A DNA stretch of 46,788 nt from a virus (Duplodnaviria > Heunggongvirae > Uroviricota > Caudoviricetes), in the IMG/VR virus record IMGVR_UViG_2896607866_000013. The stretch is one strand, 5' to 3'. The position numbers and the translations under genes were made by a program. The notes under the pieces were generated by a model. The model saw only the letters and a program-made list of their open reading frames with translations, ran no database searches and was not told the origin of the DNA. Below, one piece after another: positions 586-39,205 of the stretch; the stretch's first letter is position 1, and each line of letters starts with the position of its first letter.

Positions 586-3377
586 TATGCAAGCCTCACA
601 ATATAGTTAAATGCGATGTTTTTGACGGTGTTTTCCGCGTTACCAGCAGCGTTAACGGTGATGGTGTGTCCATGTGAACCAATCGCAACGGAGTGCGCAT
701 GAGCACCAATTGGAACAGAGTGCGCATGGTTACCTGTAGTGCTTGTGGCACCAGACCAGGTTCTGGAAGCGTTAAAGTTTACAGGAACACCATAAGTAAA
801 TTGAGAGCCCGTAAATCCATGGGCTGGCGCAGAGCCACCCAGTGTAAATGCTCCACTTGCTGTATAGAAATTACCGCTATCACTTCTGAAGTAACCGAGA
901 GTACCAGTAATTTCCATAGTGCCTCGGCTGTGGTTATGGTCACCAGTGGCATTTGAAGACTTAGTACCATAATCAAACGACGACGTGGTTTTCGTCCCCA
1001 AATCCGTACTGGATGCACTGGCGCTGTGGGTGTGCGATTTAATGCCGTCCTGTTCCTGAGATAATACGGCTCGACCACTGGCAGGTTTGCCCTTAATCGT
1101 CCAGCCACGCATATCAGGGATCACGCCTGACGGATAAGCAGCTGCAAGTTTCGGGTAAGCAGATTTGTCAAAAGTCTGCCCCTGCATCAGGGCATAACCA
1201 GACGGAACGGTATCTGATGGCCACGGGATTGGTGCGCCGACTGGGTAGCTTTCTGGTGGAAGATTTTTCGAGGTATAAACTTCTGCCCAGTCTTCCTCAA
1301 AACCATAACCGTCTCTTGAAGAACGGTAGAACAGACCACCATTTCTGTAATGCGCCTTCATCTGCAAGGTCCGGCAACTTCCGACTCCGGTATAGAAGTT
1401 AACCAGAATATAGCTGTCGCCAGAGCGGGTGACATTGTAAGCGCCTGATTCGGCATTCCAGGGAACGGCTCCATCCGAATCCGCATAAGCCCCCGTCGAA
1501 CGTCGGGCAAATGCACCAATATTTTCCGGCGTGAGGTTAATATCCGCCGAGCCATCAAACTTAACACCGTTAATTTTTGGGTCTGCCGCAAGTTTCGTCG
1601 CGGTATCGGCGTTCCCCTTCAGTGCCCCGGTGATCCCATCAGTAACAGACAACGGACCTGAAATAGTCCCTCCAGTTGTTGGCAGCGCTCCAATATCTGA
1701 TGGTGTAGGTTTCTGATGTGAGCTATACATCGTATAAACAACACCATCGGTAACGCTGGAAGGCTTACTCGCTGAATATGTTAGCGAGGTATAAATAGAA
1801 ACTGACGCATTTGTAGTACAATCCCAATGGATATTTACACTCGTCGCATAATTGCCAATCTCAACGTAAATATCATATATATCGCCGGATGTGTTGATCC
1901 AGGCGAAATTCGTTAATCCGACGGCTGTACGCTTCCACAAAGCTCCGGTAATCCCTTTGGAGTTTCCATTGCCTGCTCGTAGAACCAGTTCAGATATACC
2001 TGCCTGTTGAGGTGCCCCCACGTTAAATCCAGCGCCACCAATCAATGCGATGTAAACGATGGAACTCGCTTGTGGCATGGTAACCGTTGCCAGTTTGAAC
2101 CACCCTGCCCCGCCAGAGAAAGAGATCGTTACTGAATTTAAAGTGCCAATATCTTTCGGTGTTAATGTTATATCCGCAGTCAGTGCTTTCCCGTTAACTT
2201 TTCGGTTAGATGGTACCCTGCCATTCGCATTGTCATTCGCTGCTTTAACTGCCTTCGGTGTCGCGGCAAGCGTTTCAGATGTGCTGTTGGTTGCACTGCT
2301 GAGCTGTACTATCCCCTTTTTCGTCGTGCTCGCATCCTCAAGCGCCACGGCGGATGCAATATCCTCTGCCCGTTTTGCCGCTGTCTCGGCGCGCGTTGCC
2401 GCGGATTCCGCCGTACTTTTGCTCTGAGCTGCCGCCGTCGCACTGCCAGCTGCCTCTGTCGCCTTCGTGGATGCCGTCGTGGCGCTGCCCTTTGCTGCTG
2501 ACGCCTGTCTGGTCGCCTCATCTTTTGAAGCAGACGCAGATGATGCCGATGACGCCGCCGAACTGGCGGACGATGCGGCAGCCGTTTTTGAGGATTCTGC
2601 GCTGGTTTCCGAGGCTTTCGCGTTCGTTTCGGATGTCTTCGCTGCCTCTTTTGAGGCCGCCGCATCCCGTGCTGAAGTGGCTGCTTCTGACGCTTTCGTG
2701 GTCGCGGTGGATGCAGAAGTGGCTGCTGATTGTTGTGACGCTGCCGCATTCGTTTCTGACGTTTTCGCCGCACCGGCACTGGTAGCCGCCGCGCTTTTTG
2801 AGGACTCTGCAGCGGCAGCACTTTTTGATGCTTCAGTAGCCTTTGTTGATGCCGTTCCTGCGCTGGAAGACGCTGACTGAGCCGACGTCGCGGCCTGCCC
2901 GGCTGATGTGCTGGCTGCACGTGCTGAGCCTGCAGCATCAGTCGCATGGGTTGCCGCCTCACTGGCAGATATGCTGGCATCGCTGGCTGACTTCTTCGCG
3001 GCTGCCGTGTTCTGTGCCACCGCGGACGCGTTACGCGCCACCTCTTCCACCATCAGTTCAAAACGGCGCAGTGCCTCAGGACGGGCATCATCCTCCGTCA
3101 TGGCACCGAGAAAATCATTCAGCGTACCGGGTCGGGAATCTTCATACACGGTGATGGTCCCGGCATGTGAAGGCGGAAAACCTTCAACCAGCAGGGTGAC
3201 GCTGTACTGACCATGCTCAACATCCATGCTGTAACGTCCGGCTTCATCCGGATTTTCAGAGGCCACCGTGTTCACCACCACCGTGCTGCTGGTCCGTCTG
3301 GCTTTCAGTTGAATGGTGCAGTTCTCTACCGGTTTTCCTGTGCCGTCTTTCAGCACACCTGAAATCTTTACTGCCAT
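585..3377 (-). CDS. stf: Side tail fiber protein (lambda Stf-like)
   Basis: ORF 585-3383; ATG at 3377 gives [17 protein letters not shown]... like lambda Stf, preceded by GGGGTG SD; long Ala/Ser/Thr-rich low-complexity shaft; C-terminal HxH repeats. Confidence 0.85.
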
Positions 3378-4133: not shown

Positions 4134-7100
4134 TCAGCTGATACTGATCCCTGCTGTGGATTTTTTCATGACCACAACCAGTAAATCACTGATGTACGTT
4201 GTCGGCGTCCAGTTGTTCGCACCGGCCGACGACACATTAAACGTCAGGGTGACATGACCCCGCCCTGCCGGCATATCTATCACCGATGAGAACACCCGGC
4301 TGACATCCGTTGCCGGTTCATGGAAAATCTCAACCCCGTTCTTCAGCACCTGCAGCTTACAGGTGGAATACCAGTACGACTGCTGATTCGGGCTGTTGAA
4401 ATTCTGGTGTTTCGTCCCGCGAAACAGCACCGGGGGAATGATAATCTGCCGGTCGAAGCCCTGGTCATCGTAAACTGTGACGGTTACCGTACCGCTGGCA
4501 TAACTGTTATTCCGGGGAAAGGCTTTCCCCACCGTCTTCACCAGGTCGCCTTCAATCTGGTTTGCAGACAGTTTCCCTCTGATGACACAGTTCTCGTTAA
4601 TGGTGACATTATTGAGCGTGCCGGTATTCGCGGTAATTGCTCCGCTGATATCCGCGTTCCTGGCTGTCAGCTTCCCTTCCGGCGTCAGGGAAAACGTCGG
4701 GGGGTTGCCGGATGACGTGATACTCGCCGCAAACAGACGCTTCAGGAACACGTCGTTCATGAACAGCTGATTCCCCTGCGCCACAAATAACGGAGTGCTG
4801 TTGCCGCTCTCCGGATTTATCATCGCGATACGGTCAGCCAGCAGCAGTATGTTGCTCAGTGGCTGGCCATCAGTATCCTCAATCCCTGCACCAATCCCGG
4901 CCACATAGGGAATGCCGTCTTTCGTTTTTTGAACCTTCAGCATGTACAGCGCAGTCAGGTCATCATTTGTGTCCTTCTGCACGCGCTGTATCTGCTGTAT
5001 GGTGGCGCTCTGGTCCTCCAGCGTTTTACTGACCGTCTGTGTGATTTCATTGCGGGTTTCGGTGATGGTGGTCTTCATCTCCGCCATCTCATCCGCAAGC
5101 TGGCTGTTGTCTATCAGCTCCCACAGCCCCTGAGCCAGATGCAGTTTTCCTATTTTTTCCCGGAAAAATTCCAGATACCCTTCACCATCATTGCTGGGCT
5201 GCCCGCTGACTTCCACAAACGCAGATTTCCCCACCAGGTTGACGCTGCGCACGTAAAACCAGAAATCCTTCCCGGGCTTAATGTGCGGGCCGGATACACT
5301 CCACTGACTGCCGGTCCCCAGATAACGGGCAGAGGTTTCCACCTGTGCGGCGTCTGCAATTTTTGCCTCCGAAAACCAGAACTCAAACTGCACCGTCGGG
5401 TCATAAATGGTCAGTTTCGGGACTGCCGTTATCTGAAAATACCCCGGCGTCAGTTCAACACCGGCAGGCGCTGCCGGTGCGTTAATCCGGAACGTGGTGG
5501 TGGCGGGTTCGCCCTGCTGGCCATAGCTGTTAATCGCCCTGACCGTCAGGGTGTATTCCCCGAGAGGCAGGCCACTGAAACGGTGCTCCGTATCGGCAGT
5601 GATGGCGGTGGTCAGCAGGCGGCTGTTCTCACCGCTTCCACTGGTCAGGCGCAGACTGAAGCGCACGCCCTTCACCACCCTCGGCGTGTCCCATTTCGCC
5701 TGTGCCAGATACTGACCGTCAGCCGCGCTCACCTCCACCGTCAGGTGCTGCACTGCCGGTGGAATAACGCTGTTCAGGGTGCCTGACTGCGGCTCAAAGC
5801 TGGCCCCGTTATCCACGATGGCTTCTTTTTCCGGTACGTGCTGCACCGCCGTGATGGCAAAGGTGCCGTCCGTGTTTTCCCGGATGGAGACACAGCGGAA
5901 CAGGCGACGACGCAGTGACGGCAGGGAGAGTCCCCATACACCGTATGTCTCCACACCATCAGGCAGGGTGCTGACCTGTATCCGGTCCGGCGCGGGGTGT
6001 GCAGTGATGTCCACACTCACCGGCTTACCGCTGCCGTTAATCAGGTTCACCGTGGCGGCACCTGTCTCCGGCAGGGTCACCTCACGGTCCAGTGTCAGGG
6101 TGCGGCTGGCGGCATCGATGTACAGGACACGTCCGCCGGTCATGGTCCCGGCATAGTCATTATCACAGATTTCAATAATGTCACCGGGTGTGTGACGCAG
6201 CCCCTGTGACCCGAGCGTGAAATCCACCGTCTGCGTTTCCAGCAGTCCGGTCTTTATCACCCACAGCCCGGCACGGTGGGCCTGACCGCGACTGGTGCAG
6301 CCGAACGCATCCATCTTCAGCAGGTTGCGCCCGTAGCGCAGTATGGCTTCCGGGTCTTCCACCAGTTCCGTGGAGGTCTGCCAGCCGTTCTGCGGGTCGG
6401 TGTAATTCACCTCCACCGCCGTGTGCCGGTCCTTCAGGGCACTGAAGCTGTAGCGGAACCCCACGCCGTTATCATCCACCACCACATCGCTGCTGGTGTA
6501 CGGCCACACCACATCCGACGGGCGGTCCTGAACAAACGTCAGCGTCTGACCGTTCCATACCGGCATACAGCGCATCGCAGAGCAGAAATCACTGAGAACG
6601 TCCCACGCCTTACGCTGTTGTGACAGGTACGCATTAAAGGTCATCCGCGGCTCTGTGCCCCCGAAACCATCCGGGACCGTCTGGTCGCAGTACTGCCCGA
6701 TGGCATACAGCGCCCACTTGTCAACATCCGCCGCCCCCAGACGTTTTCCCATGCCGTAGCGCGGGTGAGTCAGCATGTCCCACAGGCACCAGGCCGGGTT
6801 GTTGCTGTATGCCGGCTTCAGGCTGCCGTCCCAGATACCGCTGTAAGTGCGTTTTTCCGGGTCATAGTTTGACGGTACCTGAATGATGCGACCTCGGATA
6901 TGGTAGTTCACCGTCATCTGCTGACCGCCAAACTGCTCCGCATCCACCTGCAGCCCCACAATCGCCTTGTTCGGGTAGCACTGTTTCACATCGATGATTT
7001 CGGTGTATGACGACCACAGCGTTCTGTTCTGCAGCTGGTCCGTGGTGCTGTCCGCCGTCTCCCGGACCATCCGGATGTTAAAAGGACGGGGAGGCAGATT

Positions 7101-32055: not shown

Positions 32056-32705
32056 GCCACCATCTCCCTGACCAGTTTTTCCGCCTGCTGGCGAACCTGC
32101 GCCAGAAATGCCTCACCACATGCCTCAAGTTCATCGCGCCCGATGTAGCTGATTGCCGGTCCCTTCCAGGTCTTGTCGAAAACAGCAATAGCACCAGCGA
32201 AGAAAGCACCTGTTGGCACCTGCTTTTCGTCTTTCGGGATAAACCAGGCAGGCAGTTCAAAACCAATACGCCCGCGAATAAAAGCAATATGATCTGCATC
32301 TTCCGGCCACCACACTTCGCTGGTGGCAGCTTTGATCAGGAAAACATAGCGCCCGCCTTTATCACGCATGGCACTGGCATGCTTCATGATGTAACGCATG
32401 CCGGTGATGTATTGCCCCTCATGCTGACTGGCGCGGCTGTACGGGGGATTGCCAAAGGCAGCACCTTTAAGCTCCGCAAGACGTTCTGACCAGTCATGCG
32501 CCAGCGCGTTGTCTTCCGCCGTGTAATACGCGGCACATTTGGCGTTATCACCGTCAGTGAACAGATCCAGAACAAACGGACCAAACAAGGTGTTAATTCC
32601 CCAGAAAATGTTGTCCGGCGTGCGCCACTGATCGCCCACTTCCTTCAGTTCATGGGCTGGTTTGTTCCGCAGTTCTACCAGCGCCTGGCAATATTTATTA
32701 CTCAT
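32052..32705 (-). CDS. Phage Dam-type N6-adenine DNA methyltransferase
   Basis: 217 aa with FGNPPYS motif; no cognate nuclease. Confidence 0.65.
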   Translation of the reverse strand: MSNKYCQALVELRNKPAHELKEVGDQWRTPDNIFWGINTLFGPFVLDLFTDGDNAKCAAYYTAEDNALAHDWSERLAELKGAAFGNPPYSRASQHEGQYITGMRYIMKHASAMRDKGGRYVFLIKAATSEVWWPEDADHIAFIRGRIGFELPAWFIPKDEKQVPTGAFFAGAIAVFDKTWKGPAISYIGRDELEACGEAFLAQVRQQAEKLVREMVA

Positions 32706-32797
32706 TAAGCCCCCACGTAAAAAGCATCCGCAATGTCTCCGGAAGTACAGCCCGGATGGGCTTCAATGAATTTCTGAACGTCATTTAACAGACTCAT
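32705..32797 (-). CDS. Candidate 30-aa ORF coupled between O-like gene and dam
   Basis: ATG 2 nt after O-like stop, preceded by AGGGGGTGA SD; its TAA overlaps dam ATG (TAATG); MSLLNDVQKFIEAHPGCTSGDIADAFYVGA. Confidence 0.3.
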   Translation of the reverse strand: MSLLNDVQKFIEAHPGCTSGDIADAFYVGA

Positions 32798-32799
32798 GA

Positions 32800-33783
32800 T
32801 CACCCCCTGAATCCTTCCGGGATCTGGCTGTAGTCCACGTTGTCGTAACTGGCTTTGAAGTACGGGTCCTCGCGTCTGGCTGCAGATACCGCAGGAACTT
32901 CCCAGGATTCTTCGAAATGACGATCCGGACCAAAGAACGTCGACGCCTGCTTCACGAACTGGGTACCGGTATTTCCAGAGACACGCACCCAGGCGGCATA
33001 GCGTTTCACACCGTCGAGCATGGTTTCGGGTGTCACACCTTCCCTGATTCGGGCTTTCCAGGCTTTAAAAGCGGCGGATTTTGAATTACCACCAGCACGT
33101 TTGGGATATTCCTGCCAGGCCTGTTCAAATTCCGGTGAATATTCCTGTCTGGCAGAACGCGCTGGTGCAGACGCGTCAGCGGATGCGCCAATAGTGTTTT
33201 TAGTCTCCGTTGTAATCTCTGTAGTAATCTCTGTATTTGTATCAACATTCGGCGTATCCCCTGTTCCGTTATGACGTCGGGGGGTGTTCCGTTTTAACGT
33301 AATAGTTGTATCGCTGATTGCATTATTGCTGTTACTTTCTGGCGAAACAGAAGAAGGTGTGGTGATGGCCGCAATTGCCTGTGGGTTGATCCCGACAAAC
33401 AAAATATTGCTGCATTTCACCCCATCGAGCATTTCCACCGTGCGTAAATCCAGAGTAATAAACCCTGCATCGCGCAGACGCTTCAGCGCATCTGCGGTTT
33501 CCCTTTTCCCGAAACCAAACTGCTCAGCAAACGCCTGGTAGCTTCTTTGCAGTTTGTCGCCCTGAAAACGCTTGCGATATCCCAGCAACGCTCCGGTGTG
33601 CTCATCCCTGACCTCTGTCGGGCGGTACCAGTAAACGATCTCTGAAAGCAGAGCGATAGCCGTCGCATCCGGACGCCCACTGGGTAGTCGAATATATTTC
33701 CACCAGGTCGCAGGTGTAACATTGCCGGAAATATTAATTTGACCAATAGCCATAACTTCCGGTGTGGGGGCGTAACGGCTCAT
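32800..33783 (-). CDS. Replication initiation / replisome organizer protein (O-like)
   Basis: 327 aa; position of lambda O after the cro/CII region; internal EITTEITTETK repeat encoded by direct DNA repeats; no P-like gene follows. Confidence 0.5.
   Translation of the reverse strand: MSRYAPTPEVMAIGQINISGNVTPATWWKYIRLPSGRPDATAIALLSEIVYWYRPTEVRDEHTGALLGYRKRFQGDKLQRSYQAFAEQFGFGKRETADALKRLRDAGFITLDLRTVEMLDGVKCSNILFVGINPQAIAAITTPSSVSPESNSNNAISDTTITLKRNTPRRHNGTGDTPNVDTNTEITTEITTETKNTIGASADASAPARSARQEYSPEFEQAWQEYPKRAGGNSKSAAFKAWKARIREGVTPETMLDGVKRYAAWVRVSGNTGTQFVKQASTFFGPDRHFEESWEVPAVSAARREDPYFKASYDNVDYSQIPEGFRG
33203..33238. repeat. Tandem 12-bp direct repeats inside O-like gene (candidate ori iterons)
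   Basis: TCTCCGTTGTAA / TCTCTGTAGTAA / TCTCTGTATTTG in tandem; lambda ori iterons also lie inside O. Confidence 0.35.
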
Positions 33784-34019
33784 ACAACCTCCTTCCGCAG
33801 CATGAGAATTGTGTAGCCACGCGCAGGTTGTAGTCTGGCTTTTGCATCAATAGTAAGCGTTGCAATTTTTCGGATATGAAGATAACCAGCTCTTTCCAGT
33901 GCCAGGGTTTCCCTGAATATCGCTTGCTTAGAACAACAGCAGAAATCAGCAAGCACCTGATGATCAATAACTCTCTCGCCTTCACCGTCTGAAGAACCCG
34001 ACATCAAAACACGCAACAT
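33780..34019 (-). CDS. Hypothetical small protein (79 aa) upstream of O-like gene
   Basis: ATG at 34019 (alt 34004), stop overlaps O-like start (ATGA); no strong SD. Confidence 0.3.
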   Translation of the reverse strand: MLRVLMSGSSDGEGERVIDHQVLADFCCCSKQAIFRETLALERAGYLHIRKIATLTIDAKARLQPARGYTILMLRKEVV

Positions 34020-34107
34020 AATCAGGCGCTGAATCGGGTTATCGAAAGCACATCCGCACACAAACTGAAAACAGTTCACGCCACACCTCCCAGACGCTTT
34101 GAAGTGG

Positions 34108-35276
<1,169 letters not shown>

Positions 35277-35345
35277 TGGAGCACCTGTGTTGTTCTGAGG
35301 TGAGCATATCACCTCTGTTCAGGTGGCCAAATTCAGTGTGCCACT

Positions 35346-35552
35346 TCACTTAAACATTTTTCCGGAGCAAAAGGCTATAAGCGGCATACTGACGCGGTAA
35401 TTACGGCCCAGCGGTTCACAAATCACCTTCTGACATTCACGGTCAACCAGGCTAACACGTAGAACATGCCCTGCAGGTGTGGTGTACCACTGACCCGGAC
35501 GAGGACAACGGAAAGTCTGATTGGTAAACCGTTTGAAAATATTCCGGATCAT
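35346..35552 (-). pseudogene. Small gene sharing the MIRNIFK.FTN leader of the Rha array, 3' end split by IS911
   Basis: ORF stop codon TGA is the first 3 nt of the IS911 end; without the IS the frame continues 6 codons (..KMFKRLGGVA*). Confidence 0.5.
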
Positions 35553-36421
35553 TTACGCCCCCTTACCTCTGAAGGGTTCAGCGACAAATTTATGAGGCAG
35601 GCCAGTGCCGAAGCATCATTAATATAGTCATACAAGCTAACAGCCAGCGGAGATTCGGCTTTTGCCAACATAGGATAAAGCTGCTGCAGCCAGACCTGAT
35701 GAATTGATGAAATGTAGGAATAGAGAACGCTGGCGTTATGTGCAACATCGCTCAGTACAGAGGGATTTGAAAGCTGTTTCTCCATCTGGTTAAAGGCATT
35801 GATGTATGCCTCTTTGAACTGGGCAGCACGTTTACCCGTGAAGCCCATGGCAAGAAACGCAAAACCGTCGCGGGTGATTTGGTAACAAGGGAGTTTGCGG
35901 CCTGATGCGTCGGTGTATTCACTTAACACAAAATTGTGTTCAGTAAATTCAGCGGAACATTCGAGGTTTCTAATTCTATCTAAAACCCGCTCATGCCGTT
36001 TAGTAAAGTAATTAGCTACTGCAAGAGATGTGGTGACAACGCGACCATTGATAATCGTGATTTCAGGGTGAGATTGGGTTGGGAGAGTAGTCATGGTGAC
36101 AGCCCCTATGTTGAATTCAATGAACTCACCACCAAGGCTTTCCACGACCATATAGGTGGTGAGACGTACAGGGGTGGAAATACCGGTCAACATAGAACCC
36201 GGCCCAACCGAAGTTGGCCCTGCACGCCCCACCATAATTTGGGCGTAACGATGCTCATGACACGAAAAAACCGCATGAGCGCGGTTGTGCTCTATATTGA
36301 ATTTCGGGTTTCCACGCCCGGCACCCGCTTTATAAGGTGCCTGAACAGTGTAACGTCCCGGAATGGCAGAATCAATGTGCTGGTGGCGATTGGTAAACAG
36401 TTTGAAAATATTCCGGATCAT
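35549..36421 (-). CDS. Rha-family phage regulatory protein (copy 1 of tandem pair)
   Basis: 290 aa; C-terminal half has Rha signature VTTSLAVANYF.KRH..VL..IR.LE...GRKLPCYQITRDGFAFLAMGFTGKRAA.FKEAYINAFNQMEK. Confidence 0.65.
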   Translation of the reverse strand: MIRNIFKLFTNRHQHIDSAIPGRYTVQAPYKAGAGRGNPKFNIEHNRAHAVFSCHEHRYAQIMVGRAGPTSVGPGSMLTGISTPVRLTTYMVVESLGGEFIEFNIGAVTMTTLPTQSHPEITIINGRVVTTSLAVANYFTKRHERVLDRIRNLECSAEFTEHNFVLSEYTDASGRKLPCYQITRDGFAFLAMGFTGKRAAQFKEAYINAFNQMEKQLSNPSVLSDVAHNASVLYSYISSIHQVWLQQLYPMLAKAESPLAVSLYDYINDASALACLINLSLNPSEVRGRK

Positions 36422-37569
36422 TTACGCCCCCTTACCTCTGAAGGATTCAGCGACAAATTTATGAGGCAGGCCAGCGCCGAAGCATCATTAATATAGTCAT
36501 ACAAGCTAACAGCCAGCGGAGATTCGGCTTTTGCCAACATGGGATAAAGCTGCTGCAGCCAGACCTTGTGGATTACCGACAGGTGGGAGTAAAGCACGCT
36601 GGCGTTATCTGCGGCATCGCTCAGCGTGGATGGCTTTGAAAGCAGTTTTTCCATCTGGTTAAAGGCATTTATGTATGCCTCTTTGAACCGGGCAGCACGT
36701 TTACCAGTGAAGCCCATAGCAAGGAACGCGAAGCCATCGCGGGTGATTTGATAGCAAGGTAGTTTGCGGCCTGTGCAATCGGTGTAATCACTCACCGAAA
36801 AATTGCGGGCAGTGAATGATGCGGAGCATTCAAGCGTGCGGATCTTTTTCAGTACATCGTCATGACGTTTGGAGAAGAAGTTGGCAACAGCTAGGGATGA
36901 AGTAACAGCCTGACCATCAACGATGGCAATTTCAGGTTGAGTGAGGGTTGGGAGAGTAGTCATAGTGACAGCCCCGGTAGTCAGTTTTTTAGAAAACTCA
37001 CCACATGGGACGCCAATCACAGAGGTGGTGAGACGTACAGGGTTGGCGTTACCGGAGACTACCGAACCCGGCCCGACCGAAGTCGGCCCTGTACGCCCCA
37101 CCATAATTTGGGCGTAGCAATGCTCATGACACGAAAAAACCGCATGAGCGCGGTTATGCTCAGTAATCAATTTCAGGACGCCAATCCCGGCACCCGCTTT
37201 ATAAGGTGCCTGAACAGTGTAACGTCCCGGAATGGCAGAATCAATGTGCTGGTGGTCCTTCACACTCAACAAAATCACGCCTGAATTTCCACAAAGGACT
37301 AAAGCACTCATGCTGGTAGTCTTTGCGAAGATAGATAACGCGCTGTGTTTCTGGCTCCCAACGAATAACATGGACATAAAGCCCTCTTCCGTCACGAAAC
37401 CAGCGGTTAAGTTCCTGCACAACTCGCCCCCCACAGTCAGGTAAAGTTCTCTGTGGTTACTTACAGCCAGGTGATCTGGTAATCTGCATTCATGCCGTAA
37501 CAACAGGTGTTCAGCGACACTGACCACCAGCTGTTGCGACAAACGGTTATTTGCCGTTAAACTGTTCAT
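36418..37569 (-). CDS. Rha-family phage regulatory protein (copy 2, with unique ~93-aa N-terminal extension)
   Basis: 383 aa; C-terminal 290 aa paralogous to copy 1 (~870-bp tandem DNA repeat); ATG immediately after the CII-like stop. Confidence 0.6.
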   Translation of the reverse strand: MNSLTANNRLSQQLVVSVAEHLLLRHECRLPDHLAVSNHRELYLTVGGELCRNLTAGFVTEEGFMSMLFVGSQKHSALSIFAKTTSMSALVLCGNSGVILLSVKDHQHIDSAIPGRYTVQAPYKAGAGIGVLKLITEHNRAHAVFSCHEHCYAQIMVGRTGPTSVGPGSVVSGNANPVRLTTSVIGVPCGEFSKKLTTGAVTMTTLPTLTQPEIAIVDGQAVTSSLAVANFFSKRHDDVLKKIRTLECSASFTARNFSVSDYTDCTGRKLPCYQITRDGFAFLAMGFTGKRAARFKEAYINAFNQMEKLLSKPSTLSDAADNASVLYSHLSVIHKVWLQQLYPMLAKAESPLAVSLYDYINDASALACLINLSLNPSEVRGRK

Positions 37570-38467: not shown

Positions 38468-39160
38468 ATGAACATAGGAAACCGAGTCAGACAACTTCGC
38501 CAGGCGAAGAACATGAAAATCGCCGATCTCGCTGAAGCAATAGGAGTGGATGCGGCGAATATCTCACGCCTGGAAACAGGTAAGCAGAAACAATTCACTG
38601 AACAAGCCCTGAGTAATATTGCCAGGAGCTTAGGTGTTGATATTGCTGATCTCTTTACCTCAGACTTCAAAAGTAATACTGTATGTAAAAACAGTATTAG
38701 TGAGGATGTTGCGCAGGTGAAGGATGTATTCCGTATTGAAATGCTGGATGTCAGTGCCAGTGCGGGAAATGGCCTTATCCAGGGCGGTGATGTCATTGAT
38801 GTGATTCATGCCATTGAATACAGAACTGATAATGCTGTATCGATGTTTGGCGGACGGCCAGCAAATCACATTAAAGTTATCAACGTTCGTGGGGACAGTA
38901 TGTGTCCAACCATTGAGCCAGGAGATCTCATCTTCGTTGATGTCAGTATCAATCAGTTTGATGGAGATGGTATCTATGTATTTGGTTTTGATGATAAAAT
39001 TTATGTCAAACGACTGCAAATGATACCTGACAAACTACTGGTGATTTCTGATAACCAGATTTATCGTGAATGGGGAATTACCAGCGAAAATGAACACCGG
39101 TTTATGGTCTTTGGAAAGGTCTTAATCAGCCAGTCACAAACCCTTAAGCGACACAATTAA
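38468..39160 (+). CDS. cI: CI-type prophage repressor (HTH_XRE + S24 LexA-like peptidase domain)
   Basis: 230 aa; N-terminal HTH; C-terminal RGDSMCPTIEPGD (Ser) and KRL (Lys) autocleavage dyad. Confidence 0.85.
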   Translation: MNIGNRVRQLRQAKNMKIADLAEAIGVDAANISRLETGKQKQFTEQALSNIARSLGVDIADLFTSDFKSNTVCKNSISEDVAQVKDVFRIEMLDVSASAGNGLIQGGDVIDVIHAIEYRTDNAVSMFGGRPANHIKVINVRGDSMCPTIEPGDLIFVDVSINQFDGDGIYVFGFDDKIYVKRLQMIPDKLLVISDNQIYREWGITSENEHRFMVFGKVLISQSQTLKRHN

Positions 39161-39180
39161 CCCTTACCTCCTCATCAATT

Positions 39181-39205
39181 AGCCACCCGAAGGTGGCTTT
39201 TCATT
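39181..39205 (+). terminator. Intrinsic terminator after cI
   Basis: AGCCACC-CGAA-GGTGGCT followed by TTTCATT. Confidence 0.6.

What the first reader, a model, noticed from the sequence alone, without database searches (positions are those of the whole stretch)
33203..33238. Tandem 12-bp repeats inside the O-like gene: candidate replication origin
Three tandem imperfect 12-mers encode an EITTEITTE linker in the O-like protein. Lambda ori lies inside O as iterons bound by O itself; a similar arrangement here would place ori within this gene. No P-like helicase loader follows, so replication may rely on host factors.
Basis: inference. Interest (0 to 1): 0.4.

Follow-up and report, generated by a model that had tools for sequence, protein, structure and literature searches.

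The report
Conserved origin repeats inside phage initiator gene
The small 12-base repeats sit in the flexible middle of a prophage replication-initiator gene and are a DNA signal, not just protein code, kept letter for letter in phages of very distant bacteria, most likely as part of a replication origin buried in the gene.

Summary
On the minus (coding) strand, ACAGAGATTACT, ACAGAGATTACA and a degenerate ACGGAGACTAAA (33223-33234, 33211-33222, 33199-33210) encode TEIT-TEIT-TETK in the disordered linker of a 327-aa replication initiator (32800-33783).

Copy number varies from 1 to 5 among 84 near-identical prophages. The unit ACAGAGAnTAC is nevertheless conserved at nucleotide level in homologues from Enterobacteria, Acinetobacter, Bacillus, Geobacillus and others:
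- Synonymous positions are invariant.
- The only free base changes the amino acid.
- Two loci read a unit in another frame.
- It occurs only on the coding strand, just after the N-terminal domain (60 hits where 0.02 were expected).

It also accompanies a second initiator N-domain family that BLAST does not link to the first, and many unrelated C-terminal domains.

Directly upstream, in fixed register, lie lineage-specific dyad-symmetric units with a 22-23 bp period, which resemble lambda iterons. The window has three. The repeats coincide with the least stable duplex in the region.

Best reading: an origin inside the gene, as in lambda and SPP1, with the dyad units as specificity iterons and the 12-mers as an invariant core, either an opening/loading tract or a second binding site. 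Nothing was tested experimentally.

The parts
32800..33783 (-).
   Evidence: ORF. phrog_270 'replication initiation protein', E 1.7e-77, with weak O-like PHROG hits. No Pfam or NCBIfam model matches. RefSeq names close homologues 'replication protein'.
33355..33783 (-). Coding for the N-terminal winged-helix-like domain (aa 1-143)
   Evidence: AlphaFold2 model has pLDDT 78-94 for residues 1-143. Only weak winged-helix fold hits: TFIIE, MarR-like, DnaD-N. Invariant motif ..EIVYWYRP..DKLQRSYQ.. across the family.
33148..33354 (-). Coding for the disordered interdomain linker (aa 144-212). All origin-like DNA elements lie within it.
   Evidence: pLDDT <50 for residues 144-212. The elements at 33199-33300 correspond to codons 162-195.
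33281..33300 (-). Iteron-like unit U1 (ACGTTAAAACGGAACACCCC)
   Evidence: Direct repeat D2, 23-bp spacing. Coordinates. Read as TLKRNT, in a different frame from U2 (sequence). Family-wide 22-23 bp periodicity and dyad symmetry.
33258..33277 (-). Iteron-like unit U2 (ACGTCATAACGGAACAGGGG)
   Evidence: Direct repeat D2. Coordinates. Read as RRHNGT, a different frame from U1.
33235..33255 (-). Degenerate iteron-like unit U3 (ACGCCGAATGTTGATACAAAT), including the conserved 5' flank GATACAAAT of the 12-mers
   Evidence: Coordinates. The flank consensus gagAc..aT is conserved in 62 non-redundant loci. The last dyad centre lies at -15.5 from the first 12-mer.
33223..33234 (-). 12-mer 1, ACAGAGATTACT (TEIT)
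   Evidence: This is the unit that expands to give up to 5 copies in relatives.
33211..33222 (-). 12-mer 2, ACAGAGATTACA (TEIT)
   Evidence: In the family's second unit the codons are T=ACA in 48 of 49 sequences and E=GAG in 44 of 44.
33199..33210 (-). Degenerate 12-mer 3, ACGGAGACTAAA (TETK)
33213..33248 (.). Least stable 36-bp duplex stretch of the replication region. It covers 12-mers 1-2 and the flank.
   Evidence: Nearest-neighbour profile: z = +3.05 within 32700-34100, and in the top 0.7% of the whole window. GC 0.38-0.40.
32893..33147 (-). Coding for the C-terminal domain (aa 213-297), shared with many lambdoid and Stx phage 'O' or 'primosomal' proteins
   Evidence: 84-95% nucleotide identity to cdtI, SfV and Stx2 phages, with homology ending at the repeats. 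phrog_1701 'DnaD-like helicase loader'. pLDDT 85-95.
32803..32892 (-). C-terminal tail (aa 298-327, ...IPEGFRG), the type found when no phage helicase or loader genes follow
   Evidence: Tail ..EGFRG is followed by Dam in 22 of 22 relatives. Tails ..KLTF and ..NFNW are followed by DnaC-like plus DnaB-like genes in 53 of 53 (alignment).

Best explanation
The 12-bp repeats are a DNA-level element of a replication origin that lies inside the initiator's own gene, in the part that encodes the disordered linker between its two domains.

The origin-like region is composite:
1. An array of lineage-specific, more or less dyad-symmetric units with a 22-23 bp (two helical turns) period. The window has three, at 33235-33300. 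These are the counterparts of the lambda iterons and are most likely bound by the winged-helix N-domain. This is inferred.
2. Directly next to them, in fixed register, one to five tandem copies of the near-universal unit ACAGAGAnTACt (window 33199-33234).

My preferred reading is that this invariant, easily melted tract is the core where the initiator-bound array opens the duplex and the replicative helicase is loaded. It would be a sequence-specific unwinding/loading tract comparable to the 13-mers of oriC or RK2, recognised by a conserved surface of the initiator or by a conserved host replication protein. This is also inferred.

In this prophage no helicase or loader gene follows. The initiator's C-terminal tail is the type that always goes with that absence, so the host DnaB/DnaC system is presumably recruited (inferred).

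Nested confidence:
- DNA-level functional element: about 0.93.
- Part of a replication origin: about 0.75.
- Opening/loading tract rather than primary iterons: about 0.45-0.5 of that.
For: Shown:
- The units are invariant at synonymous positions in homologues of 30-75% protein identity from Enterobacteria, Xenorhabdus, Acinetobacter, Bacillus, Geobacillus and others. The only variable base (position 8) changes the amino acid between I, T, N and S.
- In the family's second unit, T=ACA in 48/49 and E=GAG in 44/44 sequences. Conserved N-domain columns use their top codon only 22-85% of the time and prefer GAA for E.
- In L014 and L023 a unit is read in another frame inside an intact ORF.
- There are 60 exact hits in 40 of 76 distant loci. 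All are on the coding strand at +450..+750, with 0 elsewhere in 424 kb.
- An IMG/VR scan for the tandem pair found more than 120 contigs. In 74 of 80 fetched, an initiator N-domain lies directly upstream. These fall into two families that BLAST does not link, plus a singleton, all in 'replication initiation' PHROGs.
- The motif goes with many unrelated C-terminal domains. It is absent from the cdtI-type protein, which shares the window's C-domain but has a PF13730 N-domain.
- The upstream 140 nt shows a self-identity peak at shifts of 22-23 (0.39/0.37 against 0.26 +/- 0.005 when shuffled). Dyad-symmetry peaks lie at -15.5, -26.5, -37.5, -48.5, -59.5 and -81.5 (z up to 5.0).
- The dyad arm sequence changes with the recognition-helix subfamily, while the 12-mers do not.
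- The repeats are the local minimum of duplex stability.
- The region encodes a disordered linker.
- Isolated phages show the same layout: Geobacillus PT9.1, Acinetobacter IME-AB2, Bacillus PM1 and 0105phi7-2.

Precedents:
- Lambda ori is annotated inside gene O, with four dyad iterons and then an AT-rich tract.
- SPP1 oriL is embedded in gene 38, with direct repeats bound by G38P and an adjacent AT-rich unwinding element (PMC5737612, PMC6316719).
Against: - There is no experimental evidence of binding, melting or origin activity for any member.
- The window's own dyad units are weakly symmetric and are better described as direct repeats.
- The strict conservation of the G and C positions in the 12-mer implies sequence-specific recognition rather than mere instability. 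In low-GC hosts the tract is no more AT-rich than the genome, and an extra AT-rich run often follows it. That fits the alternative that the 12-mers are binding sites, as in SPP1, and the real unwinding element lies beyond them.
- In the window the sequence just past the repeats is GC-rich.
- Copy number varies from 1 to 5, so the spacing to downstream sequence is not fixed.
- Strand specificity is equally compatible with an RNA-level role.
- The protein family shows no significant similarity to lambda O or SPP1 G38P, so the analogy is architectural, not homology-based.
Confidence: 0.55

Rival explanations
1. One reading: the 12-mers themselves are the iterons. They would be double-stranded binding sites of the initiator's N-terminal domain, arranged head to tail as in SPP1 oriL. 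The upstream 22-23 bp units would then be auxiliary (bending, a second binding mode or regulation), and the unwinding element would lie beyond the repeats.
For: - SPP1 G38P binds short tandem direct repeats inside its own gene, followed by an AT-rich unwinding element. Gene 38 DNA shows about 11-bp tandem units followed by an AT-rich run.
- In many Firmicutes-type members the 12-mers are followed at once by AT-rich codons (NNNNDDD...).
- The unit has fixed G and C positions and one free central base, as protein-binding sites do.
- The motif is absent from the most distant (Rickettsiales) homologues of the N-domain.
Against: - The same 12-mer accompanies N-domains whose recognition helices differ completely, including a second family that BLAST does not link. 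The dyad units, in contrast, co-vary with the helix subfamily.
- One copy is enough in some relatives.
- In the window the sequence after the repeats is GC-rich, so no separate unwinding element is evident.
Confidence: 0.3
2. A conserved 'linker' sequence kept because it serves as a homologous-recombination joint for swapping initiator N- and C-terminal modules between phages, with no direct role in initiation.
For: - Nucleotide homology between the window and Stx2 or ASU11 phage genes ends exactly at the repeats (query 103-435).
- The motif sits at the boundary between one N-domain and at least six different C-terminal modules.
- Slippage-type copy variation shows that the tract is recombinogenic.
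Against: - A 24-36 bp joint would not need every base fixed across phyla or a fixed register to an upstream periodic dyad array.
- Exchange between phages of Firmicutes and Proteobacteria is too rare to maintain it.
- Module shuffling is more simply a by-product of a sequence conserved for another reason.
Confidence: 0.08
3. An RNA-level or translation-level signal in the initiator mRNA, such as a pause site, a regulator or sRNA target, or an autoregulatory binding site on RNA.
For: The motif is strictly strand-specific and always lies inside or next to the coding sequence. Nucleotide-level conservation is equally expected for an RNA element.
Against: - No Rfam match.
- No significant folding of the region (z = -0.77).
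- Frame shifts of the unit in L014 and L023 exclude a codon-level signal.
- The adjoining array has a 22-23 bp (two-turn) periodicity and dyad symmetry typical of double-stranded DNA sites.
Confidence: 0.05
4. Nothing but a low-complexity coding linker with slippage-prone repeats (a VNTR). The resemblance to an origin would be coincidental.
For: Copy number is 1, 2, 3, 4 or 5 among 84 near-identical prophages, always by gain or loss of the exact unit. The region encodes a disordered linker.
Against: - Synonymous-site invariance across phyla.
- Alternative reading frames.
- 60 observed hits against 0.02 expected, with absolute strand and position specificity.
- Association with two unlinked N-domain families.
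Confidence: 0.02

Closest known systems
Bacteriophage lambda ori within gene O (four dyad-symmetric iterons, then an AT-rich region, then a palindrome), with initiator O and loader P
   Same: - The origin-like DNA lies in the middle of the initiator gene and encodes the interdomain linker.
- There is an array of dyad-symmetric repeats at a spacing of about two helical turns, followed by an easily melted tract.
- Some family members have iteron arms of the lambda type, TCCC...GGGA.
- The gene sits in the early-right operon of a lambdoid prophage.
   Different: - The protein has no Pfam Phage_rep_O match, and hhalign gives probability 0.1 against lambda O.
- The tract next to the iterons is a sequence-conserved tandem 12-mer, not a generic AT-rich run.
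- No P-like loader gene follows in this window.
[quoted passage not shown]
   Same: - The origin is embedded in the initiator's own gene.
- There are short head-to-tail direct repeats (about 11 bp in gene 38) in the linker-coding part, followed by AT-rich DNA.
- Relatives of the window protein in Geobacillus and Bacillus phages are followed by G39P-like loaders and DnaB-type helicases.
- The annotators of phage 0105phi7-2 report an HHpred link of the N-domain to the replisome-organizer N-terminal family.
   Different: - No significant sequence similarity to G38P here, and no PF09681 or TIGR01714 hit.
- The repeat sequence is different.
- This family has an additional upstream periodic dyad array that gene 38 does not obviously have.
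13-mer repeats of DNA unwinding elements (E. coli oriC L/M/R 13-mers; RK2 oriV 13-mers). From general knowledge.
   Same: Tandem 12-13 bp, moderately AT-rich, sequence-conserved repeats placed directly beside the initiator-binding array, in a fixed orientation, coinciding with the local stability minimum.
   Different: The sequence is unrelated, the repeats lie inside a coding region, and melting or single-strand binding has not been shown. Copy number varies from 1 to 5.

Membership tests
Lambda-type origin (ori-lambda / O protein) | The initiator belongs to the lambda O family (Pfam PF04492 Phage_rep_O) | tested here: not met
   No Pfam hit at E<0.01. hhalign of the family N-domain against lambda O gives probability 0.1. 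Only weak PHROG 'O-like' hits: phrog_391 at 5.9e-8 and phrog_678 at 6e-5.
Lambda-type origin (ori-lambda / O protein) | The origin is located inside the initiator gene, in the interdomain-linker coding part | tested here: met
   Met for position only. The conserved DNA elements at 33199-33300 correspond to codons 162-195, within the disordered linker 144-212. Origin activity itself was not tested.
Lambda-type origin (ori-lambda / O protein) | Three or more dyad-symmetric iterons spaced about two helical turns apart | tested here: inconclusive
   Clear in the family: a 22-23 bp periodicity peak and an 11-bp lattice of dyad centres, with four perfect units in Geobacillus PT9.1. In the window there are three units at 23-bp spacing, but with weak dyad symmetry.
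Lambda-type origin (ori-lambda / O protein) | An easily melted (AT-rich) region adjacent to the last iteron | tested here: met
   33213-33248 is the least stable 36-bp stretch of 32700-34100 (z = +3.05) and directly abuts unit U3.
Lambda-type origin (ori-lambda / O protein) | A P-like helicase-loader gene immediately downstream of the initiator | tested here: not met
   Downstream come a 30-aa ORF and then Dam, RusA, KilA-N and DUF968. Relatives with another C-terminal tail have DnaC-like plus DnaB-like genes instead.
Lambda-type origin (ori-lambda / O protein) | The initiator binds the repeats, and the fragment supports replication | not testable with these tools
   Needs EMSA or footprinting and a mini-replicon assay.
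SPP1-type replisome organizer / oriL | N-terminal replisome-organizer domain (PF09681 / TIGR01714) | tested here: not met
   No Pfam or NCBIfam hit. hhalign against G38P gives probability 0.1. The only link is an HHpred note written by the annotators of phage 0105phi7-2.
SPP1-type replisome organizer / oriL | Short tandem direct repeats inside the initiator gene, followed by an AT-rich unwinding element | tested here: inconclusive
   Tandem 12-mers are present. An AT-rich run follows in many Firmicutes-type members. In the window the DNA after the repeats is GC-rich.
Plain coding VNTR / low-complexity linker | Copy number changes by slippage of the unit | tested here: met
   1 to 5 full copies among 84 close relatives. 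Extra units are always the exact ACAGAGATTACT.
Plain coding VNTR / low-complexity linker | No constraint on the DNA beyond the encoded peptide (synonymous sites free, no conservation in distant relatives) | tested here: not met
   Synonymous sites are invariant, units are read in other frames, and position and strand specificity hold across phyla.
DUE-type 13-mer repeats (oriC, RK2) | Tandem 12-13 bp repeats beside the initiator-site array, at the local minimum of helix stability | tested here: met
   Fixed register to the last dyad unit, whose centre lies at -15.5. Stability minimum.
DUE-type 13-mer repeats (oriC, RK2) | The tract melts on initiator binding, with single-strand recognition | not testable with these tools
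   Needs KMnO4 or P1 probing and ssDNA-binding assays.

The most novel reading that the evidence does not exclude
ACAGAGAnTAC is a cross-phylum 'origin core'. On this reading it is a sequence-specific opening or helicase-loading signal shared by thousands of phage and prophage origins whose initiators otherwise have different DNA specificities. It would be read in single-stranded or distorted form by a conserved surface of this initiator superfamily, or by a universally conserved bacterial replication protein (DnaB-type helicase, primase or SSB complex). That would make it a phage counterpart of DnaA-trios. It would allow origin prediction from sequence alone and would explain how initiator C-terminal modules and hosts can be swapped so freely.
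Probability: 0.25. Interest if true: 0.8.

Novelty: new variant of a known kind. Interest (0 to 1): 0.6.

Why it matters
Origins inside initiator genes are textbook for lambda and SPP1, but their repeats are thought to be phage-specific. Here an 11-nt DNA word is fixed, down to synonymous codon positions, in the linker of replication-initiator genes across many hosts: E. coli (including Stx2-phage 'O' genes), Salmonella, Yersinia, Acinetobacter, Bacillus, Geobacillus and many uncultured hosts. It spans two initiator N-domain families that BLAST does not link.

If it is an origin core, three things follow:
- It gives a simple sequence marker for locating origins in a large class of temperate phages that have no Pfam-described initiator.
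- It separates a variable 'specificity' part of the origin from an invariant 'mechanical' part.
- It is directly testable by synonymous recoding in easily handled phages or prophages.

I found no mention of the motif in the searchable literature.

Tried and rejected
- **'Just a VNTR linker'.** This was my first impression after finding 5 copies in a 99.5%-identical prophage and homology to Stx phages ending at the repeat. I rejected it after the codon and frame analyses.
- **'The motif travels with the C-terminal module'.** Rejected. The cdtI-type protein has the same C-domain but no motif, and the motif follows the N-domain across many C-domains.
- **Homology to lambda O or SPP1 G38P by hhalign.** Nothing significant.
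- **PDB sequence search.** No hit. The Foldseek PDB search gave only generic winged-helix matches with E >= 8e-3.
- **Rfam.** No family.
- **Single-strand folding of 33190-33320.** Not different from shuffles.
- **Promoter and terminator scan.** Nothing at the repeats.
- **Plasmid search for a natural mini-replicon that relies on this gene alone.** Homologues exist in phage-plasmid-like Bacillus and Acinetobacter plasmids. The small Vagococcus plasmid I inspected carries another rep gene, so the search was not decisive.
- **Literature search for the motif strings and the peptide.** Only unrelated primer sequences.
- **Failed scripts.** One script looped and timed out (rerun). A regex classification of N-domain types failed and was replaced by BLAST clustering.
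Full report
**1. The observation**

The array is real. TRF reports 33204-33235, period 12, 2.7 copies. The coding strand is the minus strand. In register the units are ACAGAGATTACT (33223-33234), ACAGAGATTACA (33211-33222) and a degenerate ACGGAGACTAAA (33199-33210). They encode TEIT-TEIT-TETK in ORF 32800-33783(-), 327 aa.

The gene matches phrog_270 'replication initiation protein' (E 1.7e-77). Its C-terminal part matches 'DnaD-like helicase loader' and 'primosomal' PHROGs, and it has weak O-like hits. It has no Pfam or NCBIfam model.

Neighbours on the same strand:
- Upstream: a 99-aa gene, then an IS911-like insertion (34100-35348, with a 3-bp CTT duplication, absent from a 99.5%-identical prophage), then two Rha/Ash-type genes.
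- Downstream: a 30-aa ORF, Dam methylase, RusA, KilA-N and DUF968.

This is the early-right region of a lambdoid E. coli prophage. 195 of 5426 complete E. coli genomes carry at least 80% of the 1.4-kb segment.

**2. First impression, and why it was wrong**

A near-identical prophage (E. coli OkiPb01675) has three extra perfect units. Among 84 close relatives the number of full units is 1 (one locus), 2 (70), 3 (11), 4 (one) and 5 (one), always by gain or loss of the exact unit. Nucleotide homology to Stx2 and ASU11 phage genes ends exactly at the repeats.

But protein homologues from other genera keep 'TEITTEITTE', so I examined the DNA.

**3. The unit is conserved as DNA, not as protein**

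- In homologues of 30-75% identity (Salmonella, Citrobacter, Yersinia, Xenorhabdus, Rosenbergiella and Firmicutes-type phages) the codons are always ACA GAG AnT ACT. Every synonymous position is fixed. The only variable base is the middle of the third codon, which changes the residue (I/T/N/S).
- In a 54-sequence codon alignment, the second unit (not used for anchoring) has T=ACA in 48/49 and E=GAG in 44/44. The best-conserved columns of the N-domain use their commonest codon only 22-85% of the time and prefer GAA for Glu.
- In L014 and L023 a unit is read in a different frame within an intact ORF (as YRDY and IQRI).
- In 76 distant genome loci fetched through the N-domain alone, exact ACAGAGAnTAC occurs 60 times in 40 loci. 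All are on the coding strand at +450..+750 nt from the gene start, and none elsewhere on either strand of 424 kb (0.02 expected in those intervals).
- The window has only the two hits in this array.
- An anchored consensus of 62 non-redundant loci reads gagAc..aT-ACAGAGA.TACt-ACAgAGA.TACt-aca.
- Unit spacing is mostly 12 bp, sometimes 13, 15 or 23-25 bp.

**4. What the motif travels with**

It follows the N-terminal domain across at least six unrelated C-terminal domains. These include the window's YfdO-like domain, Phg_2220_C, a DnaD/DnaB_2 domain and several unnamed ones. It is absent from the cdtI-type protein, which shares the window's C-domain but has a PF13730 N-domain and a different repeat-rich linker.

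In 74 of 80 fetched, an initiator N-domain lies within 900 nt upstream. By BLAST clustering these N-domains form one large family (65), the window's family (10) and a singleton. All fall in cross-matching 'replication initiation' PHROGs, and none is in Pfam. The large family includes the 'replication protein O' of Stx2a-converting phages.

Isolated phages carry the whole arrangement: Geobacillus PT9.1, Acinetobacter IME-AB2, Bacillus PM1 and 0105phi7-2.

**5. The neighbourhood: a periodic dyad array**

Immediately 5' of the 12-mers (in the gene's sense) every lineage has two to six units with a 22-23 bp period. Mean self-identity of the upstream 140 nt peaks at shifts of 22 and 23 (0.39 and 0.37, against 0.26 +/- 0.005 in shuffles). 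Averaged dyad symmetry peaks at -15.5 (z = 5.0), -26.5, -37.5, -48.5, -59.5 and -81.5 relative to the first 12-mer. That is the 11-bp lattice expected for 22-bp palindromic units in fixed register.

Examples:
- CCTCCCACATTCTAATGTGGGAGG (L016)
- CCTACGTTTGAACGTAGG (L036)
- CTCCCGAAAAAACGGGAG (L026)
- Four perfect GGGGTGTGACGTTAGAACGTCA units in Geobacillus PT9.1

These look like lambda's iterons (TCCCTCAAAACGAGGGA). The arm sequences change with the subfamily of the putative recognition helix, and change completely in the second N-domain family, while the 12-mers stay the same.

In the window the corresponding units are ACGTTAAAACGGAACACCCC (33281-33300), ACGTCATAACGGAACAGGGG (33258-33277) and a degenerate ACGCCGAATGTTGATACAAAT (33235-33255). 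The first two are 23 bp apart and are read in different frames (TLKRNT and RRHNGT). Their dyad symmetry is weak.

**6. Physical and structural context**

- The least stable 36-bp duplex stretch of 32700-34100 is 33213-33248 (z = +3.05, top 0.7% of the whole window). It covers 12-mers 1-2 and their flank (GC 0.38-0.40).
- AlphaFold2 gives a confident N-domain (1-143, winged-helix-like), a disordered linker (144-212) and a confident C-domain (213-297). All the DNA elements (codons 162-195) lie in the linker, as lambda ori does in O.
- Fold search gives only generic winged-helix matches, including the DnaD N-domain, at weak E-values.
- No RNA family, no significant single-strand fold and no promoter-like site lie at the repeats.

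**7. Interpretation**

Shown:
- A strand-specific, position-specific DNA element is under strong purifying selection.
- It is embedded in the linker-coding part of replication-initiator genes.
- It lies next to a periodic dyad array.

Established knowledge:
- Lambda ori lies in O, with dyad iterons followed by an AT-rich opening region (annotation).
- SPP1 oriL lies in gene 38, with direct repeats bound by G38P followed by an AT-rich unwinding element (PMC5737612, PMC6316719). Gene 38 shows about 11-bp tandem units and then an AT-rich run.

Inference: this is an origin inside the gene. I assign the lineage-specific dyad units the role of specificity iterons. I assign the invariant 12-mers the role of a conserved core, most likely the tract that is opened or used for helicase loading. 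The reasons are that it stays constant when the recognition helix and even the domain family change, it occupies the position of lambda's AT-rich region, and it is the stability minimum.

The main rival is that the 12-mers are double-stranded initiator sites in the SPP1 manner, with the unwinding element beyond them. It is supported by the fixed G and C positions and by the AT-rich runs that follow in low-GC members. I cannot exclude it.

The remaining alternatives fit poorly (see the rival explanations). A recombination-joint role is more simply a by-product of conservation for another reason, an RNA-level role has little support, and the pure-VNTR reading is contradicted.

**8. The 'no loader' remark**

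In 80 close relatives the last ~25 residues of the initiator predict the downstream genes perfectly.
- Tails ..KLTF or ..NFNW are followed by DnaC-like plus DnaB-like genes (53/53).
- The window's ..EGFRG tail is followed by Dam, with no helicase or loader (22/22).

This fits recruitment of the host helicase system through the tail, which is an inference.

**9. Comparison and membership**

The locus works like lambda ori/O and SPP1 oriL/G38P in architecture, but it is not a detectable member of either protein family. The near-universal 12-mer has no described counterpart that I could find. I file it as a new variant of a known kind, the intragenic phage origin.

**10. Verdict**

- The origin interpretation is supported by strong comparative evidence but untested experimentally.
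- The identification of the 12-mers as the iterons is doubtful.
- Interest is moderate to high, because an invariant cross-phylum DNA word inside a coding linker is unexpected and easy to test by synonymous recoding.

Noticed in passing
window 34100-35348: An IS911-like (IS3-family) element of about 1.25 kb, with orfA (34974-35312) and orfB (34108-34947) on the minus strand. It is flanked by a 3-bp CTT duplication and inserted near the 3' end of a 74-aa gene two genes upstream of the initiator. It is absent from the 99.5%-identical prophage of E. coli OkiPb01675 (L001). It separates the replication genes from their upstream operon and may make this prophage replication-defective.
   Followed up: partly
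window 32803-32892, and loci L083-L162: The last ~25 residues of the initiator predict the neighbouring genes. Tails ..KLTF and ..NFNW always precede DnaC-like plus DnaB-like genes (53/53). Tail ..EGFRG always precedes Dam with no helicase or loader (22/22). This suggests that the tail is the partner-recruitment module.
   Followed up: partly
L294 (lambda) 553-590 = lambda 39152-39189: To the right of lambda's AT-rich region lies the inverted repeat TCAGAGAATTC..GAATCCTCTGA. Its half-sites match ACAGAGAnTAC at 8 and 7 of the 10 specified positions. Lambda's linker peptide DYSSENS resembles the EITSENT of the Stx-phage type. Alone this could be chance (roughly p = 0.1), but it hints that the 12-mer may be an old component of lambda-type origins.
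   Followed up: no
L419 (SPP1) about 4939-5035, inside gene 38: SPP1 gene 38 contains about 11-bp tandem units (AGAAACGACAG AGAAACGACAC GAAAAAGACAC GAAAAAGACAC) followed by an AT-rich run. The first junction contains ACAGAGA, the first 7 bases of the window's unit.
   Followed up: no
L006 (phage cdtI) 3001-3885; proteins P0076-P0120: Initiators with a PF13730 N-domain and the same C-domain as the window carry a different repeat-rich linker (GDSLGGSANNSLSGAANSPGSAG, about 63-bp units, variable in number). This may be their own intragenic origin repeats.
   Followed up: no
window 35549-36421 and 36418-37569: Two adjacent, overlapping Rha/Ash-family genes (290 and 383 aa) have nearly identical C-terminal halves, so they form a tandem duplication upstream of the IS. 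The related prophage L001 has a single Rha gene there.
   Followed up: no
window 32705-32797 (-): A 30-aa ORF (MSLLNDVQKFIEAHPGCTSGDIADAFYVGA) lies between the initiator and Dam. In other E. coli genomes the homologous DNA is annotated as yfdN (PerC-family regulator) or as an incomplete CDS. The segment matches the K-12 CPS-53 yfdO-yfdN region at 96%.
   Followed up: no
loci L061, L064, L065, L069-L079 (Rickettsiales, Candidatus Megaera): Distant homologues of the N-domain (30-38% identity), in larger proteins of 400-550 aa, lack the 12-mer motif altogether. Some are annotated as DnaA-like on plasmids. They may mark the boundary of the motif-bearing clade.
   Followed up: no
window 671-728: The highest-scoring tandem repeat of the window (27-bp unit, 2.1 copies, TRF score 81) was not examined.
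   Followed up: no
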